Shown here piece after piece: positions 610-8,765 of a stretch of 8,951 nucleotides of DNA (within the stretch, counting starts at the first letter, position 1; every line of letters begins with the position of its first letter). A model generated the notes under the pieces. The model made no database searches. It was not told where the DNA came from and saw nothing but the letters and a program-made list of their open reading frames with translations. Location: IMG/VR virus record IMGVR_UViG_3300029107_000009, positions 1-8,951 of that record; one strand, 5' to 3'. A program made the position numbers and the translations under genes. The DNA comes from a virus. Taxonomy: Duplodnaviria > Heunggongvirae > Uroviricota > Caudoviricetes.

Positions 610-819
610 GCATCCAGTGAGTTGGTTCGTAAGGTTACAGATACGTATATCTGAATAATTAAATTCAGTTCTGTAAATAAAATTTAATCCTTAACCGGAG
701 GGATTTCTGCACCCTCAAATCATCAGGAGGCCGCCCGAAAGGGCGGTAGTGAAATACGAAAGTTCAAAATAATTATTGAAACAGGAATAGCTGGTGGAGA
801 TTTTGAGGATGTATTCGAA

Positions 820-936
820 GTGGACGATGACGCAACACCTGATGAAATTCATGATGAAGCAAAAGAAATTTTCTTTAACTACTGCAATTACTCATATCAC
901 GAAATAAAAGACGAGGAGGAAGAACAAAATGGCTGA
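820..936 (+). CDS. Small highly acidic protein (about 38 aa from GTG; start uncertain)
   Basis: Frame open from 688 to TGA 934-936 encoding ...DVFEVDDDATPDEIHDEAKEIFFNYCNYSYHEIKDEEEEQNG. No in-frame ATG; the only canonical in-frame start is GTG 820 with a weak GAGG 11 nt upstream. Its stop overlaps the ATG of the next ORF (AATGGCTGA). Confidence 0.3.
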   Translation: MDDDATPDEIHDEAKEIFFNYCNYSYHEIKDEEEEQNG

Positions 937-1105
937 TTTTGGTTCAACTAAATACAACGTCAGTTTTGAAGAATGGCATGAACTGTTAATGGATTATGCA
1001 GAGTTACGTGGTGGAAGTGCTGCTGATGCTGAAGCCTGGCGTGATGACTACGAAGCAGGAAAAACACCTGTCGAAGCATATTGTGATGAGTGGGGCGATG
1101 AATGA
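929..1105 (+). CDS. Small acidic protein (58 aa)
   Basis: ATG 929 preceded by GAGGAGGA (913-920). Acidic, Trp-containing product MADFGSTKYNVSFEEWHELLMDYAELRGGSAADAEAWRDDYEAGKTPVEAYCDEWGDE. Start overlaps the stop of the preceding acidic frame. Confidence 0.5.
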   Translation: MADFGSTKYNVSFEEWHELLMDYAELRGGSAADAEAWRDDYEAGKTPVEAYCDEWGDE

Positions 1106-1209
1106 GCGAGATTAATTATCAGGAAGGGCATGAAACGGTAGGGCAGGCAAAACCAGTTGCATGACGATATCGCTATGTGAAAAAGGGCGTTACGGACCTT
1201 CAGGAGAAG

Positions 1210-1617
1210 ATGTGGGTTGGTGACTGGAAATATGTACCGACAAAAGAGGATTGCAACGACAGGCCGAGCTATGAGATTCAGGCCTTATTCACTACCCCGC
1301 CAGTCCCGGTGATATCAGAAGGACTGGTTAAAGCCGCGCGCTTTTATGAACAGGTAAAGCGTGAGAATCCACCAGTCGAAACAGGAGTATGGAAAGATGC
1401 TGTTGATTGGGTTCTCAAAGAGGCCTGCTGTGCTGTCATTCTGGGTAAAGCCGACAATCCATTAGCATCCAGTAACCAAGTTGGCGAATTAACAATGTGG
1501 GTTAAACGACAGGTCAGTCAACTGAAAAAAGCTAATCCAGACTGCAAATTACCGGAGAAGGCGATGGACTACCTTAAGCGGAACGAACTGATAAGCGCGG
1601 AGGATGTTTTGCGATGA
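1210..1617 (+). CDS. Hypothetical protein (135 aa from ATG 1210; 146 aa if the GTG at 1177 is used)
   Basis: Long ORF in the supplied track (1177..1617). ATG 1210 has AGGAG 3 nt upstream; GTG 1177 has no obvious SD. Soluble-looking product with no motif I recognise. Stop TGA overlaps the ATG of the following peptide gene (ATGA). Confidence 0.6.
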   Translation: MWVGDWKYVPTKEDCNDRPSYEIQALFTTPPVPVISEGLVKAARFYEQVKRENPPVETGVWKDAVDWVLKEACCAVILGKADNPLASSNQVGELTMWVKRQVSQLKKANPDCKLPEKAMDYLKRNELISAEDVLR

Positions 1618-1988: not shown

Positions 1989-2002
1989 GCGGGTGCTTGA
2001 GG
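1989..2002 (+). promoter_or_regulatory. Upstream complementary box of the hok mRNA (fold-back inhibition element, 5' partner)
   Basis: GCGGGTGCTTGAGG (1989-2002) can pair antiparallel with CCTCAACGCACCCGC (2365-2379) just before the 3' terminator: 14 bp with a one-nucleotide bulge. Confidence 0.5.
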
Positions 2003-2037
2003 CTATCTGCCTCGGGCATGAACACCAACGGCAGATA

Positions 2038-2111
2038 GAGAAAAGCCCCAGTTAACATTACGCGTCCTGCAAGACGCTTAACATTAATCTGAGGCCCAAT
2101 CTATGCTTCAC
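2038..2111 (-). ncRNA. Candidate Sok-like antisense RNA (boundaries approximate)
   Basis: Minus-strand -35 TTGCCT (forward 2141-2146) and -10 TAACCT (forward 2118-2123) with a 17-nt spacer. The transcript would be antisense to the mok start codon (2103) and its SD. On the minus strand an outer 7-bp stem (forward 2045-2051 with 2089-2095, one G-U pair that is a C-A mismatch on the plus strand) encloses an inner hairpin (forward 2062-2077) and is followed by UUUUCUC. Confidence 0.3.
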
Positions 2112-2315
2112 AAACGTAGGTTAGCCTCTTACGTGCCGAAAGGCAAGGAGAAGCAGGCTATGAAGCAGCAAAAGGCGATGTTAATCGCCCTGATCGTCAT
2201 CTGTTTAACCGTCATAGTGACGGCACTGGTAACGAGGAAAGACCTCTGCGAGGTACGAATCCGAACCGGCCAGACGGAGGTCGCTGTCTTCACAGCTTAC
2301 GAACCTGAGGAGTAA
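2103..2315 (+). CDS. Mok-like ORF: in-frame 19-codon N-terminal extension of hok
   Basis: 70-aa ORF MLHKRRLASYVPKGKEKQA + Hok sequence, in frame with hokD as in chromosomal mok/hok annotations; GAGG lies 10 nt upstream of ATG 2103. Confidence 0.45.
   Translation: MLHKRRLASYVPKGKEKQAMKQQKAMLIALIVICLTVIVTALVTRKDLCEVRIRTGQTEVAVFTAYEPEE
2160..2315 (+). CDS. hokD: Hok-family type I toxin (HokD/RelF-like, 51 aa)
   Basis: Product MKQQKAMLIALIVICLTVIVTALVTRKDLCEVRIRTGQTEVAVFTAYEPEE matches the Hok/Gef family and my recollection of E. coli HokD (RelF). SD AAGGAG at 9 nt; N-terminal TM helix and conserved Cys. Confidence 0.9.
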   Translation: MKQQKAMLIALIVICLTVIVTALVTRKDLCEVRIRTGQTEVAVFTAYEPEE

Positions 2316-4204: not shown

Positions 4205-4564
4205 ATGCGTATAGAGTTTGTTTTGCCTTACCCGCCGACGGTGAATACCTACTGGCGACGTCATGGCAATACGTATTTCATCTCGGAGGCCGGAAAGCGT
4301 TATCGCCATGATGTGGCGCTAATTGTTCGCCAGCAGCGGTTGAAATTAAACCTGTCCGGAAGGCTGGCGATAAAGATTATTGCAGAGCCACCGGATAAGC
4401 GCCGTCGTGACCTGGACAATATCCTGAAAGCACCACTAGATGCGCTGACGCATGCCGGACTACTCATAGACGACGAGCAGTTTGATGAAATCAATATTGT
4501 GCGCGGTCAGCTCGTTCCTGGTGGGCGGCTGGGGATAAAAATCACAGAACTGGAGTGCGCATGA
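4205..4564 (+). CDS. rusA: RusA-type Holliday junction resolvase (119 aa)
   Basis: Product contains PDKRRRDLDN..LDALTHAG, closely resembling the RusA acidic catalytic-core motif (PDRRRRDLDN..FDALTKAG as I recall it). AAGAGG at 6 nt from ATG 4205. Confidence 0.85.
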   Translation: MRIEFVLPYPPTVNTYWRRHGNTYFISEAGKRYRHDVALIVRQQRLKLNLSGRLAIKIIAEPPDKRRRDLDNILKAPLDALTHAGLLIDDEQFDEINIVRGQLVPGGRLGIKITELECA

Positions 4565-5250
4565 ATAACCAGTATTTACAGTTTGTGCGTGAGCAGCTCA
4601 TTATCGCCACCGCTGATTTGAGTGGGGCAACAAAAGGTCAGCTTGAAGCCTGGCAGGAGAATGCCATGTTCGATACAGGGCGTTACAGGCGAAAAAAAAT
4701 CCGGTACCGCGATGAAGTGACTGGAAAAATGATAACGCGGAATAATCAACCAATCCCGGGAAAGCAATCGCTGGCGAAGGGGACGTCAATTCCTCTGGTC
4801 AGTCCGGTTGAGTTTTCGACATCATCGTGGCGGCGGGCTGTTCTGTCTCTTGAAGAACATCATAAAGCCTGGTTGTTGTGGTGTTACAGCGGGAGTATTT
4901 GTTGGGAATATCAGATCGCTATAACACAGTGGGCGTGGAATGAATTTAATACTCAATCCGGTACCAGAAAAATTGCAGGGAAAACGCAGGAACGCCTGAA
5001 AAAATTAATCTGGCTGGCGGCGCAGGCAGTAAAAGCAGAACTTTTTGGTGGGGAAGGTTATGAATACCAGGATCTGGCATTACTGGCGGGAGTGACAACT
5101 AAAAACTGGTCCAAAACATTTACTCGTCACTGGGTTGCAATGAAACACATTTTTCAACGACTGGATAGTGAGGCTTTATTGTTTGTAATGAGAACACGTT
5201 CAAAACAAAAGGCGGCATTTTCAAAGCAAAATGTTGCAAAAGTAGATTGA
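4561..5250 (+). CDS. Putative late-gene antiterminator Q-like protein (229 aa from ATG 4561)
   Basis: ATG 4561 overlaps the rusA stop (ATGA) with GGAG at 5 nt. Lies immediately upstream of a strong promoter plus terminator and the lysis genes, which is the canonical Q position. Assignment is positional; no Q family motif recognised with certainty. Confidence 0.55.
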   Translation: MNNQYLQFVREQLIIATADLSGATKGQLEAWQENAMFDTGRYRRKKIRYRDEVTGKMITRNNQPIPGKQSLAKGTSIPLVSPVEFSTSSWRRAVLSLEEHHKAWLLWCYSGSICWEYQIAITQWAWNEFNTQSGTRKIAGKTQERLKKLIWLAAQAVKAELFGGEGYEYQDLALLAGVTTKNWSKTFTRHWVAMKHIFQRLDSEALLFVMRTRSKQKAAFSKQNVAKVD

Positions 5251-5460: not shown

Positions 5461-5536
5461 GGCCCTTTAGCTCAGTGGTGAGAGCGAGCGACTCATAATC
5501 GCCAGGTCGCTGGTTCAAATCCAGCAAGGGCCACCA
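5461..5536 (+). tRNA. tRNA with CAU anticodon, ileX/ileZ-like (Ile2 type after lysidine modification, or elongator Met)
   Basis: 76 nt; acceptor GGCCCTT/AAGGGCC; D-arm GCTCAGTGGTGAGAGC; anticodon loop CTCATAA; T-loop TTCAAAT; encoded CCA. Resembles E. coli ileX from memory. Confidence 0.8.
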
Positions 5537-5537
5537 A

Positions 5538-5614
5538 CCGCCACTAGCTCATCAGGAAAGAGCGTCAACCCTTTAAGTTGAGTGTGCGAGGTTCGAGTCC
5601 CCGGTGGCGGTCCA
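5538..5614 (+). tRNA. tRNA-like gene with atypical anticodon loop CCTTTAA (anticodon UUU if canonically numbered, but C at position 33)
   Basis: 77 nt; acceptor CCGCCAC/GTGGCGG; anticodon stem TCAAC/GTTGA; T-loop TTCGAGT with one A-C mismatch in the T-stem; encoded CCA. Confidence 0.55.
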
Positions 5615-5616
5615 GT

Positions 5617-5692
<76 letters not shown>

Positions 5693-5695
5693 TAT

Positions 5696-5770
<75 letters not shown>

Positions 5771-6915: not shown

Positions 6916-7180
6916 CCTTCCTGGATTGCTGAATGTGGCGTTATGCACGGTTATCGTGCTGACGCTCTTTTTTTATCGTCGCCGTGATTCCAGACATAAA
7001 CCGCTGGTGTCATGGCTGGCCTGGCTGCTGATGCTGCTTTATGCCTTTGCACCACTCAGCTATCTGTGTGGTCGCCCGTTAGCAACGGGCTGGCTGGAAG
7101 TGTTTTTTAACCTGCTGTTCTGCGTGCTGGTAATACGCGCACGCGGGAACGTCACAAAAATCTTTCCATTGTTGAGGTGA
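6905..7180 (+). CDS. Membrane protein of the lysis cassette (91 aa, about three TM segments)
   Basis: ATG 6905 with GGAGGAGG at 5 nt, overlapping the holin stop by 11 nt; hydrophobic product; stop overlaps the endolysin start region. Confidence 0.6.
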   Translation: MLSNLPGLLNVALCTVIVLTLFFYRRRDSRHKPLVSWLAWLLMLLYAFAPLSYLCGRPLATGWLEVFFNLLFCVLVIRARGNVTKIFPLLR

Positions 7181-7182
7181 AT

Positions 7183-7560
7183 ATGTCGGGTAAATTCAGA
7201 TTCAGCCGTCGCAGTGAAAAAAATCTGGAGGGCGTCAAACCACAGCTGGTTGCTGTCGTTCGCCGTGCGCTGGAGCTGACGGAGGTTGATTTCGGTATTA
7301 CGGAAGGCCTGCGCAGTAAGTATCGCCAGAAACAGCTGGTCGCGGAAGGGAAAAGCCAGACCATGAACAGCCGCCACCTGACCGGTGATGCTGTGGATGT
7401 TGTGGCTTATGTTGGCAGCCAGGTGTCATGGGACTGGCCTCTGTACGAGAAAATCGCGCAGGCATTTAAGCAGGCTGCCGCAGAGCTGGGGACTGCCATC
7501 GAATGGGGCGGGGACTGGAAAACACTGAAAGACGGACCTCACTTTCAGTTGAAACGATAA
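7183..7560 (+). CDS. Endolysin, peptidase M15 (VanY / L-alanyl-D-glutamate peptidase-like), 125 aa from ATG 7183 (alternative GTG 7177)
   Basis: Product carries SRHLTGDAVDV, which matches the zinc-binding SxHxxGxAxD signature of M15-type cell-wall peptidases; GAGG upstream; follows the holin-like genes. Confidence 0.75.
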   Translation: MSGKFRFSRRSEKNLEGVKPQLVAVVRRALELTEVDFGITEGLRSKYRQKQLVAEGKSQTMNSRHLTGDAVDVVAYVGSQVSWDWPLYEKIAQAFKQAAAELGTAIEWGGDWKTLKDGPHFQLKR

Positions 7561-7572
7561 GCAAAACAAAAC

Positions 7573-7600
7573 CCCCGCAGCTGGAACAGTCCGGGGTTTT
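7573..7600 (+). terminator. Probable terminator after the endolysin gene
   Basis: CCCCG...CGGGG stem with a 14-nt loop followed by TTTT; weaker than the other terminators in the window. Confidence 0.4.
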
Positions 7601-7831
7601 TAGTTTTCACGCCATGAAAAGGAACAATAAGTTGCAAAACAGCATGAGGTGAGGAAATTGTGAACAGTGAGTACGGGGAAAATCCTCGTGGGAAAGTATA
7701 AAAGATTCTTTTTGAGGTTGTCCATTATGAAAGGTATTGAAGTGGAAACTCCCGCGAGCCTTGATTTGACAAGGGCTGCGGCCTTTGCATGGCGGTCGCT
7801 GTTCTGATTTGGGCTGTGCGTTGGTGGTGAC

Positions 7832-8014
7832 ATGAGCAGAAAACACTGGACACACAGAATGCCTCGAGCGGCGGCGAAAAGGGCACTGGTAGCGATACTG
7901 GTGCCTTTTTTATTGGTGGGCTGCGTTAGCCTGGATAAGGCGCGCCAACTTTTAGATACAGCTTCTCAGGTCTGCAAAATTGTCGACAGTGTCCAGCAGT
8001 GTATGCAGAACTGA
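7832..8014 (+). CDS. Small lipoprotein (60 aa precursor; lipobox LVGC; 30-aa mature peptide with three Cys)
   Basis: ATG 7832; basic N-terminus, hydrophobic stretch LVAILVPFLLVG, then Cys: a signal peptidase II-type pattern. No overlapping Rz-like ORF. Confidence 0.5.
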   Translation: MSRKHWTHRMPRAAAKRALVAILVPFLLVGCVSLDKARQLLDTASQVCKIVDSVQQCMQN

Positions 8015-8041
8015 GCTTTGCATTTGGATGGTGCGAGTAAC

Positions 8042-8067
8042 AAAAAACGGTCAATTGACCGGTTGAT
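8042..8067 (-). terminator. Rho-independent terminator for the minus-strand gene (perfect palindrome, possibly bidirectional)
   Basis: CGGTCAATTGACCG palindrome (8048-8061) followed on the minus strand by UUUUUUG, 12 nt after the minus-strand stop codon. Confidence 0.6.
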
Positions 8068-8073
8068 TAGCGT

Positions 8074-8253
8074 TTAACGTTTGCTGTCTGGAGTTCGTTT
8101 TACAGGTACCCATGTAGCACCCGGCTTTGATGTCGGGGGAGCCGTATGGTTATCAGGAATGGTGGTGTAATTGTTTGTCGTGCCACCACGTGGGCCTTGT
8201 TGACGGTAAACGCCACCATCTTTGCCACTATTTTCACCTGGTTTTAAAGCCAT
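8074..8253 (-). CDS. Hypothetical Gly/Pro/Thr-rich hydrophilic protein (59 aa), opposite-strand moron
   Basis: ATG at 8253 on the minus strand with AGGGA SD at 7 nt; own terminator; product MALKPGENSGKDGGVYRQQGPRGGTTNNYTTIPDNHTAPPTSKPGATWVPVKRTPDSKR. The track's longer ORF to 8322 starts at TTG with no SD. Confidence 0.5.
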   Translation of the reverse strand: MALKPGENSGKDGGVYRQQGPRGGTTNNYTTIPDNHTAPPTSKPGATWVPVKRTPDSKR

Positions 8254-8414
8254 GCTAGTCCCTTTTATTAAAGTCACGATTGTGTGACAAGGTGAGTATT
8301 GGTCGTATAAGTGAAAAGACAAGATGAAATTTTTTCATGAGCCATCTGTTAGTTCATCTTAAGCACATTCTGGAAATGTGAGCTGATATTTACGGGAGTT
8401 AGAGGAAATTAACA

Positions 8415-8765
8415 ATGCCCCTGCGAACCCCAAAAGTCTGCCGTGTTCGCGGTTGCCGCCATACCACGACTGACCCGTCAGGCTACTGCGAAAGCCACAA
8501 AAGCGAAGGCTGGAAGCAATACAAACCTGGACAATCCCGTCATCAGCGCGGCTACGGTTCGAAGTGGGACAGTATCCGCGTGCGCATATTGAAGCGTGAC
8601 AAAGGCCTGTGTCAGTTATGTCTGCGTGCTGGTGTGGTGCGTGAGGCGAAAACCGTTGACCACATCATCCCTAAAGCGCATGGCGGCACTGATGCCGACA
8701 GTAATCTGCAGAGTCTGTGCTGGCCGTGTCATAAGGCGAAGACGGCCCGTGAATGGCTGAAGTAA
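8415..8765 (+). CDS. HNH endonuclease (116 aa), packaging-associated type
   Basis: Product has CxxC...HK...DHIIPKAHGGTDADSNLQSLCWPCHKAK, a classic HNH motif. GAGGAA SD. Sits immediately upstream of the terminase small subunit, as in HK97-like phages. Confidence 0.85.
   Translation: MPLRTPKVCRVRGCRHTTTDPSGYCESHKSEGWKQYKPGQSRHQRGYGSKWDSIRVRILKRDKGLCQLCLRAGVVREAKTVDHIIPKAHGGTDADSNLQSLCWPCHKAKTAREWLK

What the first reader, a model, noticed from the sequence alone, without database searches (positions are those of the whole stretch)
688..936. Protein-like acidic reading frame with no canonical start codon
The frame is open from 688 to 936 and encodes a convincingly protein-like acidic sequence (...DVFEVDDDATPDEIHDEAKEIFFNYCNYSYHEIKDEEEEQNG), and its stop overlaps the next ATG. 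It has no in-frame ATG, and its only GTG (820) has a poor SD. An AGGAGG at 724-729 is immediately followed by a GC hairpin with a GAAA loop (731-746) and then in-frame ATA/ATT codons. This could be non-canonical initiation, a structure-bridged RBS, a frameshift-dependent gene, or a decaying gene.
Basis: seen in the sequence. Interest (0 to 1): 0.4.

Follow-up and report, generated by a model that had tools for sequence, protein, structure and literature searches.

The report
Prophage gene with mutated start codon
The acidic reading frame is an ordinary small prophage gene (DUF7167 family) whose ATG start codon has mutated to ATA in this lineage, so it is probably almost silent; the unusual ribosome-binding leader in front of it is a conserved, reusable cassette, not a quirk of this copy.

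Summary
The frame is open from 688 to 936, has no in-frame ATG, and its only GTG is at 820. A GAAA-loop hairpin spans 730-747.

The real gene is 754-936, a 60-codon member of Pfam DUF7167. Homologues start with ATG at 754; this window has ATA (G756A). That allele is absent from 5,426 complete E. coli genomes, IMG/VR and the GTDB species representatives. It does occur in one other, slightly diverged assembly (GCA_002522445.1), so it is inherited and not a sequencing error. The neighbouring gene (1102-1617) carries a TGG-to-TGA nonsense mutation. Together these point to a start-loss allele in decaying accessory genes, not conserved non-canonical initiation and not frameshifting. Codons 688-753 are non-coding leader that happens to be open.

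The SD-hairpin-start layout (23 nt, about 6-7 nt once folded) belongs to a roughly 105-nt intergenic module. That module sits in front of at least five unrelated prophage gene families, always 6-11 nt before their ATG. It resembles the T4 gene 38/25 split ribosome-binding sites but is untested experimentally. Overall interest is low.

The parts
754..936 (+). DUF7167-family coding sequence (60 codons plus TGA). It is intact apart from the start codon.
   Evidence: Pfam PF23768: 53.6 bits, profile positions 1-60 aligned from residue 2. phrog_1997: profile 1-57 aligned to residues 1-57. PGAP annotates the equivalent 183-nt CDS as 'DUF7167 family protein' in NZ_CP016546 and NC_017641. Among 175 family representatives at 50% identity, most align from their own residue 1.
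754..756 (+). Mutated start codon: ATA where homologues have ATG (G756A).
   Evidence: Alignment A1. A 45-mer with ATG matches 716 places in 679 complete E. coli genomes, and the same 45-mer with ATA matches none. There is no ATA allele in IMG/VR or the GTDB representatives. The ATA allele is present in L133 (GCA_002522445.1), which differs from the window at 15 of 3,609 sites.
725..730 (+). Shine-Dalgarno sequence AGGAGG, 23 nt upstream of the start codon.
   Evidence: Read from the sequence. The GGAG core is kept in 51 of 52 leader variants. The predicted duplex with the 16S rRNA 3' end is -10.3 kcal/mol.
730..747 (+). Hairpin 2: stem G730-C736 paired with G741-U747, GAAA tetraloop. It lies between the SD and the start codon.
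   Evidence: Predicted energy -15.5 kcal/mol. All 52 variants keep a hairpin, median -14.8 kcal/mol against -3.75 +/- 2.1 for shuffles. 95.3% of cells are paired, with one G-C to A-U compensatory change and many C-to-U wobble changes in the 5' arm.
698..716 (+). Hairpin 1: GAGGG (698-702) paired with CCCUC (712-716), 9-nt loop.
   Evidence: Predicted energy -7.2 kcal/mol. 98.8% of cells are paired across 52 variants and all changes are G.U wobbles. The 5' arm was fixed by the search pattern, so this test is partly biased.
651..753 (+). Conserved non-coding intergenic module. It starts with CTGAATAATTAA (stop codons in all three frames, within the imperfect inverted repeat 651-668) and contains UCCUU (688-692), hairpin 1, the SD and hairpin 2.
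   Evidence: The module is shared upstream of unrelated genes and homology ends at or just after hairpin 2. One-nucleotide indels and different reading frames relative to the downstream ATG show it is non-coding. There is no Rfam hit and no promoter-like or terminator-like site.
820..822 (+). The only in-frame canonical alternative start (GTG). It would give a 38-aa product lacking both predicted beta-strands.
   Evidence: ORF list. GAGG at 805-808 lies 11 nt upstream, and its predicted duplex with the 16S 3' end is -6.2 kcal/mol. The model places strands at residues 2-8 and 17-23.
929..1105 (+). Downstream 58-aa gene. It overlaps the DUF7167 stop by 8 nt and has its own SD, GAGGAGGA, at 913-920.
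   Evidence: It is annotated as a hypothetical protein in relatives and matches phrog_519.
1102..1617 (+). Neighbouring 171-codon gene, inactivated by a TGG-to-TGA nonsense mutation at 1162-1164 (codon 21).
   Evidence: Alignment with the intact 171-aa copies in L130 and L136. The mutation is also present in L133, which shows no difference from the window at 1164. It matches phrog_660.

Best explanation
Window 754-936 is a normal member of the small acidic DUF7167 / phrog_1997 protein family. These are roughly 55-60 aa proteins of unknown function, found in the early accessory-gene region of lambdoid E. coli prophages. In this lineage the ATG start codon has mutated to ATA (G756A).

Shown here:
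- The gene is a family member.
- The ancestral start is ATG at 754.
- The ATA allele is rare but inherited.
- The stretch 688-753 is non-coding.

Inferred:
- The strong SD and the leader are intact, so ribosomes should still load. Published measurements put initiation on AUA at about 0.02-3% of AUG, so the gene is effectively a severe hypomorph or young pseudogene.
- Its neighbour (1102-1617) carries a nonsense codon, which suggests both are accessory genes drifting under relaxed selection in a resident prophage.
- In the wild-type family, translation most likely starts by a split ribosome-binding site. AGGAGG (725-730) is 23 nt from the start in linear sequence. The stable GAAA hairpin (730-747) would bring it to about 6-7 nt, as in T4 genes 38 and 25.
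For: - Start codon: four-way alignment A1 shows ATG in homologues and ATA in the window. PGAP's CDS in a 98.7%-identical region starts exactly at window 754.
- Family membership: the Pfam and PHROG profiles align from residue 1-2. 175 family representatives mostly begin at profile position 1 with M[RK]K....
- Rarity of the allele: ATG:ATA is 62:2 among fetched copies. Complete E. coli genomes hold 716 ATG places and no ATA place. IMG/VR and the GTDB representatives have none.
- Inheritance: the ATA allele is in a second assembly that differs at 15 of 3,609 sites.
- Protein sequence: the window's product matches cluster representative P0005 at all 58 aligned residues, and the two differences from H1 within 754-936 are synonymous.
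- Neighbouring gene: a TGG-to-TGA nonsense mutation is present.
- Family-wide decay: one cluster has the start Met replaced by Arg (P0003), and several clusters are frameshifted or truncated.
- AUA initiation strength: bioRxiv 10.1101/063800.
- Split RBS, leader conservation: about 128 leader copies sit before at least 5 unrelated protein families, with 6-11 nt between hairpin and ATG.
- Split RBS, hairpin: it is kept in all 52 variants.
- Split RBS, precedent: the T4 gene 38/25 sites are described in PMC3014915.
Against: - The ORF behind the ATA is still perfectly intact, and the allele has persisted through some divergence. The only difference from L133 inside the gene is synonymous. Low-level functional expression from AUA therefore cannot be excluded.
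- In the second assembly, the gene record the collection holds starts at the ATA.
- The split RBS has no experimental support.
- Covariation is not statistically distinguishable from shuffles: there is only one compensatory pair.
- The 3' arm of the hairpin (GGGCGGU) is itself a weak SD-like sequence at normal spacing, with a predicted duplex of -8.1 kcal/mol. It could serve as the SD if the hairpin opens.
- The predicted MFE also pairs UCCU 688-691 with AGGA 725-728. That pairing would partly mask the SD.
Confidence: 0.85

Rival explanations
1. ATA at 754 is a selected, functional non-canonical start codon. It would keep DUF7167 expression deliberately low in this lineage, analogous to the AUU start of infC.
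For: The ORF is fully intact and the strong SD and leader are intact. The allele is shared by two prophage copies that differ at 15 sites, and the one difference inside the gene is synonymous. ATA is a permitted initiator in translation table 11, and the gene record held for the second assembly starts at it. AUA does initiate measurably.
Against: The allele is absent from 5,426 complete E. coli genomes, IMG/VR and the GTDB representatives. All other family members, including distant ones, use ATG/Met. The adjacent gene in the same lineage carries a plain nonsense mutation. The family shows many other lesions. Two copies are far too few to demonstrate selection.
Confidence: 0.1
2. Translation starts at GTG 820 and yields a 38-aa acidic peptide (MDDDATPDEIH...), as the mechanical ORF call suggests.
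For: It is the only canonical in-frame start. A GAGG lies 11 nt upstream, with a predicted duplex of -6.2 kcal/mol.
Against: It would delete residues 1-22, which hold both predicted beta-strands of a 60-residue domain whose model has pLDDT 89. The family profiles start at residue 1. Homologues have the same GTG internally (it encodes Val23) and are annotated from the upstream ATG. The spacing is suboptimal.
Confidence: 0.03
3. The gene really begins upstream, in the open frame from 688, giving a longer protein. This would happen through a non-ATG start or through a frameshift from another frame.
For: The frame is open for 22 codons upstream of 754. Some database entries-93-aa N-terminally extended versions, such as P0001, P0003, P0006 and P0010.
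Against: In the window a TAA at 685-687 closes the frame and no start codon follows it. The extended calls come from a different upstream variant (TTTATTAAATCC) that happens to carry an in-frame ATG. The same leader precedes unrelated genes at 6, 7, 8, 9 or 11 nt, which puts it in different frames. It also carries 1-nt indels. No ATG-initiated overlapping ORF or slippery site is present.
Confidence: 0.01
4. The ATA is a sequencing or assembly error, and the real sequence has ATG.
For: It is a single-base difference from hundreds of otherwise near-identical copies.
Against: The same base is present in an independently assembled genome (GCA_002522445.1, contig NOTQ01000016.1). That genome differs from the window at 15 other positions.
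Confidence: 0.01

Closest known systems
Pfam PF23768 (DUF7167) / PHROG phrog_1997 small prophage proteins
   Same: The window's product matches over the full length above the curated cut-off. It has the same length, about 60 aa. It sits in the same context, a lambdoid-prophage early region after DUF977 and a methyltransferase and before DUF551/hok/Rem/DUF968/RusA/Q. Its sequence matches widespread E. coli alleles at every residue compared.
   Different: The start codon is ATA and not ATG. The family's function is unknown. The confident model (pLDDT 89, a beta-hairpin plus a helix) has no significant match among solved structures.
Split (hairpin-bridged) ribosome-binding sites of bacteriophage T4 genes 38 and 25 (Nivinskas et al. 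1999; Malys and Nivinskas 2009; reviewed in PMC3014915)
   Same: The SD is too far from the start in linear sequence: 23 nt here, against 22 and 27 nt in T4. A stable intervening hairpin would shorten the effective spacing to 6-7 nt here, against 5 and 11 nt in T4. The arrangement is conserved among related phages.
   Different: It has not been tested experimentally. Here the element is a portable roughly 105-nt cassette found in front of at least five unrelated genes, whereas in T4 it is tied to one gene. It carries additional SD-like and anti-SD-like segments (UCCUU, GGAGGG, CCCUC) that could mask or unmask the SD.
Genes with conserved non-AUG starts (for example E. coli infC with AUU)
   Same: A near-cognate AUN codon sits at the position of the initiator, behind a good SD.
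   Different: In infC the unusual codon is conserved and regulatory. Here it is a private allele and every homologue has ATG.
Conserved boundary or linker sequences between gene modules of mosaic lambdoid phages (modular-evolution model; recalled from the literature, not tested here)
   Same: A short, highly conserved non-coding sequence lies exactly at the junction between interchangeable genes, and homology breaks right at the ATG.
   Different: Whether this leader promotes recombination is not shown. Its SD and hairpin content suggests that a translational function is what is conserved.

Membership tests
DUF7167 (Pfam PF23768) | HMM score above the curated gathering threshold (24.4 bits) | tested here: met
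   53.6 bits, E 2.4e-14, for the product of window 757-933 with Met placed at codon 754. phrog_1997 gives E 2.1e-30.
DUF7167 (Pfam PF23768) | The domain spans the whole small protein and begins at the initiator Met | tested here: met
   Profile positions 1-60 align from residue 2. Family representatives align from residue 1 to profile position 1.
DUF7167 (Pfam PF23768) | A canonical start codon at the family N-terminus | tested here: not met
   The window has ATA at 754-756. 62 of 64 fetched copies and 716 places in complete genomes have ATG.
Split / hairpin-bridged RBS (T4 gene 38/25 type) | The SD-to-start distance in linear sequence is far beyond the functional range | tested here: met
   The last G of AGGAGG (730) is separated from A754 by 23 nt.
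Split / hairpin-bridged RBS (T4 gene 38/25 type) | A stable intervening hairpin reduces the effective spacing to about 5-11 nt | tested here: met
   This rests on prediction only. The hairpin at 730-747 is -15.5 kcal/mol, leaving 6-7 nt to the start. The spacer is 6-11 nt in 116 copies across 5 gene families.
Split / hairpin-bridged RBS (T4 gene 38/25 type) | The hairpin is conserved among relatives with evidence of selection on pairing | tested here: inconclusive
   96.8% of cells are paired, with many C-to-U wobble changes and one compensatory pair. Shuffles reach the observed values in 150-184 of 500 trials. All 52 variants still fold at -5.4 kcal/mol or better.
Split / hairpin-bridged RBS (T4 gene 38/25 type) | No alternative SD at normal spacing | tested here: inconclusive
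   GGGCGGU (741-747) can pair with the 16S 3' end at -8.1 kcal/mol. It lies in the hairpin's 3' arm and its unpaired probability is 0.04.
Split / hairpin-bridged RBS (T4 gene 38/25 type) | Hairpin-destabilising mutations lower translation and compensatory ones restore it | not testable with these tools
   This needs reporter fusions or toeprinting.
Conserved non-AUG initiation (infC-like) | The non-AUG codon is conserved across homologues | tested here: not met
   ATA is found only in the window and in L133. It is absent from 5,426 complete genomes, IMG/VR and the GTDB representatives.
Programmed ribosomal frameshift gene | An upstream ATG-initiated ORF in another frame with a slippery site, conserved in homologues | tested here: not met
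   No such ORF exists. Homologues are single intact ORFs starting at the ATG.
Intrinsic terminator | A GC-rich hairpin followed by a T-run | tested here: not met
   The scan found no terminator-like site in 500-1200. The hairpin is followed by AGTGAAAT.
Any curated RNA family (Rfam 15) | A covariance-model hit at or near the gathering score | tested here: not met
   Nothing is found in 600-800 at the gathering threshold. The best relaxed hit has E 1.4 and scores 15.5 bits against a gathering score of 34.

The most novel reading that the evidence does not exclude
The roughly 105-nt intergenic module (window 651-753) may be an undescribed, portable translation-initiation cassette of lambdoid prophages. 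It would stop ribosomes in all three frames through CTGAATAATTAA. It would then present a strong SD, insulated between two stable hairpins and bridged to the start codon by the second hairpin. That would let accessory genes be swapped behind it without retuning translation. Its UCCUU and CCCUC anti-SD-like segments could also make it a conformational on/off switch or the target of a regulator.
Probability: 0.3. Interest if true: 0.45.

Novelty: new member of a known kind. Interest (0 to 1): 0.2.

Why it matters
For the finding itself, little: it is a start-codon loss in a known small prophage gene of unknown function, next to another knocked-out gene. It shows how cryptic prophage accessory genes erode. 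It also shows why mechanical ORF callers give inconsistent products here, with 38-aa, 60-aa and 84-93-aa calls all present in databases.

The by-product is mildly useful. A widespread conserved leader places its SD 23 nt from the start behind a stable tetraloop hairpin. If confirmed, it would be a natural example, outside the T-even phages, of a split ribosome-binding site. It would also be a naturally occurring insulated, reusable translation-initiation element.

Tried and rejected
- **Source genome.** I looked for the window's exact source among complete E. coli genomes and found none. The best matches were mosaic, about 93% identical over 73% of the window. The source lineage turned up only through an exact protein look-up.
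- **Rfam.** Both the gathering and the relaxed thresholds gave nothing in the leader.
- **Promoter and terminator scan of 500-1200.** It found nothing. This rejects the hairpin as an intrinsic terminator and finds no promoter-like site just upstream of the leader.
- **Covariation statistics on the two hairpins.** There is too little variation, and the result is not distinguishable from shuffles. RNAalifold added an invariant UCCU:AGGA helix with no covariation.
- **Literature search for the hairpin sequence.** It returned no papers.
- **Function of DUF7167.** NCBIfam gave no hit and the PHROG family has unknown function. The AlphaFold model is good (pLDDT 89), but the Foldseek search of the PDB gave no match below E = 1.
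- **Codon-position variability test across copies.** It was uninformative: 40/40/48 variable sites, probably because indel-bearing copies were compared without gaps. I do not use it.
- **boxA/boxB (nut-like) reading of the leader.** I considered it and dropped it. The resemblance is weak, the spacing is wrong, and the element is not placed just downstream of an early promoter.

Full report
**1. The observation**

- The frame is open from 688 (after TAA at 685-687) to TGA at 934-936.
- It has no in-frame ATG or TTG, and its only GTG is at 820.
- Its C-terminal two thirds read as an acidic, protein-like sequence.
- The GC hairpin is C731-G746 with a GAAA loop at 737-740. It extends by a G730.U747 wobble pair and has a predicted energy of -15.5 kcal/mol.
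- In-frame ATA/ATT codons follow at 754, 769, 772, 775 and 787.
- The next gene's ATG (929-931) overlaps the end of the frame by 8 nt.

**2. What the frame is**

The region is very common. A 621-nt query around it matches 2,590 of 5,426 complete E. coli genomes, as well as several temperate phages.

In the closest complete genome (98.7% identity), PGAP annotates a 183-nt CDS named 'DUF7167 family protein'. It corresponds exactly to window 754-936. Other relatives carry the same annotation.

A four-way alignment shows ATG at window 754-756 in the homologues and ATA in the window, a single G756A substitution.

With Met at that codon, the product behaves as a full family member:
- It scores 53.6 bits (E 2.4e-14, cut-off 24.4) against Pfam PF23768, with profile positions 1-60 aligned from residue 2.
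- It scores E 2.1e-30 against phrog_1997, profile 1-57 aligned to residues 1-57.
- An exhaustive HMMER search finds 175 family representatives at 50% identity. Most are 50-60 aa long and align from their own first residue with the pattern M[RK]K.K...TG.

The family N-terminus is therefore at window 754, and the ancestral start is ATG.

**3. The upstream 22 open codons are not coding**

- The sequence from about 651 to 753 recurs upstream of unrelated genes, and homology stops at or just after the hairpin.
- In 80 IMG/VR contigs and other fetched loci I found about 128 full copies of this leader.
- The downstream ATG lies 6, 7, 8, 9 or 11 nt after the hairpin, depending on the gene, so the leader sits in different frames.
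- The leader also carries 1-nt indels.
- In the window, a TAA at 685-687 closes the frame.
- Some database entries of 84-93 aa come from a different upstream variant that happens to contain an in-frame ATG. These are gene-caller artefacts. The exception may be P0003, where the normal Met is replaced by Arg.

**4. How rare is the ATA allele, and is it real?**

- A 45-mer centred on the start codon was designed so that megablast can seed only if the central base matches. With ATG it hits 716 places in 679 complete genomes. With ATA it hits none.
- Exact-pattern scans for the ATA allele find nothing in IMG/VR or in one genome per GTDB species.
- Among fetched DUF7167 copies the count is 62 ATG to 2 ATA.
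- The second ATA copy is in GCA_002522445.1, contig NOTQ01000016.1. I found it through an exact look-up of the neighbouring methyltransferase.
- That contig differs from the window at 15 of 3,609 aligned positions. One of these differences is a synonymous change inside the gene.

The allele is therefore inherited within a small lineage and is not a sequencing error.

**5. Signs of decay**

- The next-but-one gene (window 1102-1617) is 171 aa and intact in relatives. In the window it carries TGG-to-TGA at 1162-1164 (codon 21), another G-to-A transition. The second assembly shares it.
- The DUF7167 family as a whole shows many lesions in E. coli prophages. Examples are a Met-to-Arg start loss (P0003, 139 member sequences), several frameshifted or truncated clusters, an annotated internal stop in strain PC6, and a deletion that fuses its first codons to the next gene.
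- The same leader in front of a different gene also shows an ATG-to-ATA change in one locus, L063.

**6. Likely consequence in this window**

- The leader and SD are intact, so 30S subunits should still bind. Published measurements put AUA initiation at roughly 0.02-3% of AUG in E. coli (bioRxiv 10.1101/063800).
- GTG at 820 has a GAGG 11 nt upstream (predicted duplex -6.2 kcal/mol). Starting there would remove residues 1-22, which hold both beta-strands of a confidently modelled small domain: pLDDT 89, strands at 2-8 and 17-23, helix at 29-43.
- The downstream 58-aa gene has its own GAGGAGGA at 913-920, so it should not depend on coupling.
- I infer a severe hypomorph or young pseudogene. Low-level functional expression from AUA cannot be excluded, because the ORF is still perfect.

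**7. The leader and the 'structure-bridged RBS'**

Features of the leader:
- In the wild-type family the only strong SD (AGGAGG, predicted duplex -10.3 kcal/mol with the 16S 3' end) is 23 nt from the ATG.
- No start codon lies at normal spacing from it.
- The intervening hairpin would bring it to about 6-7 nt.

Conservation across the 52 distinct leader variants:
- The GGAG core is kept in 51.
- Hairpin 2 is kept in all of them (median -14.8 kcal/mol, worst -5.4, shuffles -3.75 +/- 2.1).
- 96.8% of pair cells are standard pairs.
- Changes are mostly C-to-U in the 5' arm. These preserve G.U pairing in the plus-strand RNA.
- There is one G-C to A-U compensation, and the loop switches from GAAA to GGCA, both GNRA.

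Limits of the evidence:
- The shuffle controls are not significant, so this is conservation and not proven covariation.
- In the one downstream family with an 11-nt spacer, a new GGAG sits between hairpin and ATG. This fits the idea that the other families rely on the upstream SD.

This matches the defining anatomy of the T4 gene 38 and gene 25 split ribosome-binding sites, where spacing shortens from 22 to 5 nt and from 27 to 11 nt (PMC3014915). Those sites were proven by mutagenesis. This one has not been tested.

Caveats on the mechanism:
- The hairpin's 3' arm, GGGCGGU, is a weak SD-like sequence at normal spacing (-8.1 kcal/mol), but it is almost always paired (unpaired probability 0.04).
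- The predicted MFE pairs UCCU 688-691 with AGGA 725-728 (-25.4 against -22.7 kcal/mol), so the SD may be partly masked.

The whole module:
- It begins with CTGAATAATTAA, which has stops in all three frames. In several loci this motif holds the stop codon of the upstream gene.
- It contains several SD-like and anti-SD-like segments.
- It has no Rfam match and no promoter-like or terminator-like site.
- It precedes at least five protein families that are unrelated by BLAST: DUF7167 (60 copies), an MTELT... family (25), DUF4014-like (19), an MGITKERLL... family (6) and an MLTLK... family (5).

**8. Comparison with known things and verdict**

- The gene is a known Pfam/PHROG family of unknown function. 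No NCBIfam model matches it and no solved structure resembles the model.
- The missing ATG is a private point mutation. It is not a conserved non-canonical start, not a frameshift signal and not an upstream extension.
- The SD-hairpin-start arrangement is a plausible new example of a known mechanism. It is the only part that deserves follow-up.
- Overall interest is low, about 0.2.

Noticed in passing
window 1102-1617 (nonsense codon at 1162-1164): A 171-codon gene (phrog_660, unknown function) is interrupted at codon 21 by TGG-to-TGA. It is intact in relatives L130 and L136. The same lesion is in GCA_002522445.1. ORF callers report only the 3' part (1177 or 1210 to 1617).
   Followed up: yes
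window 651-753; loci L003-L129: A roughly 105-nt conserved intergenic module (three-frame stops, two hairpins, SD) is reused in front of at least five unrelated prophage gene families. Homology ends at the hairpin, 6-11 nt before each ATG. It is not in Rfam.
   Followed up: partly
L044, L047 (IMG/VR loci), right after the motif ATCCTTAACCGGAGGG: In a few loci the first part of the leader (AATCCTTAACCGGAGGG) is followed directly by an ATG 4-8 nt later. GGAGGG there seems to serve as an ordinary SD. The full leader may therefore have grown from a simpler ribosome-binding site.
   Followed up: no
L063 (IMG/VR), leader followed by TAATAAAAATAGCTGAACTA: A second, independent ATG-to-ATA start-codon loss lies behind the same leader, but in a different gene family (MAELT...). 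Relatives have ...AAAAATGGCTGAACTA.
   Followed up: no
protein cluster P0003 (87 aa, 139 member sequences): This DUF7167 allele has the normal start Met replaced by Arg. It is called from an upstream in-frame ATG inside the leader variant TTTATTAAATCC. It could be a rescued N-terminally extended protein or another dead allele.
   Followed up: no
one fetched locus (product MRKFRKNKMADFGSTKYNV...): A deletion fuses the first four codons of DUF7167 to the downstream 58-aa gene.
   Followed up: no
window 1991-2315: A hok/sok-type type I toxin-antitoxin locus. The sok RNA (Rfam RF01794, 113 bits) lies at 1991-2165 and a Hok-family ORF ends at 2315. A Rem-like ORF follows at 2533-2796.
   Followed up: no
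window 5461-5767: Four tandem tRNA genes lie just downstream of the Q antiterminator gene (4555-5250). Relatives annotate Ile, Lys, Thr and Gly tRNAs at the equivalent place.
   Followed up: no
window 7560-8400: After the M15 endolysin gene (7177-7560) there is no long Rz-like ORF. There is only a 60-aa ORF with a lipobox-like LLVGC (7832-8014). Homology to most relatives ends at 8014, before an HNH endonuclease gene (8415-8765). The spanin arrangement may be unusual or degraded.
   Followed up: no
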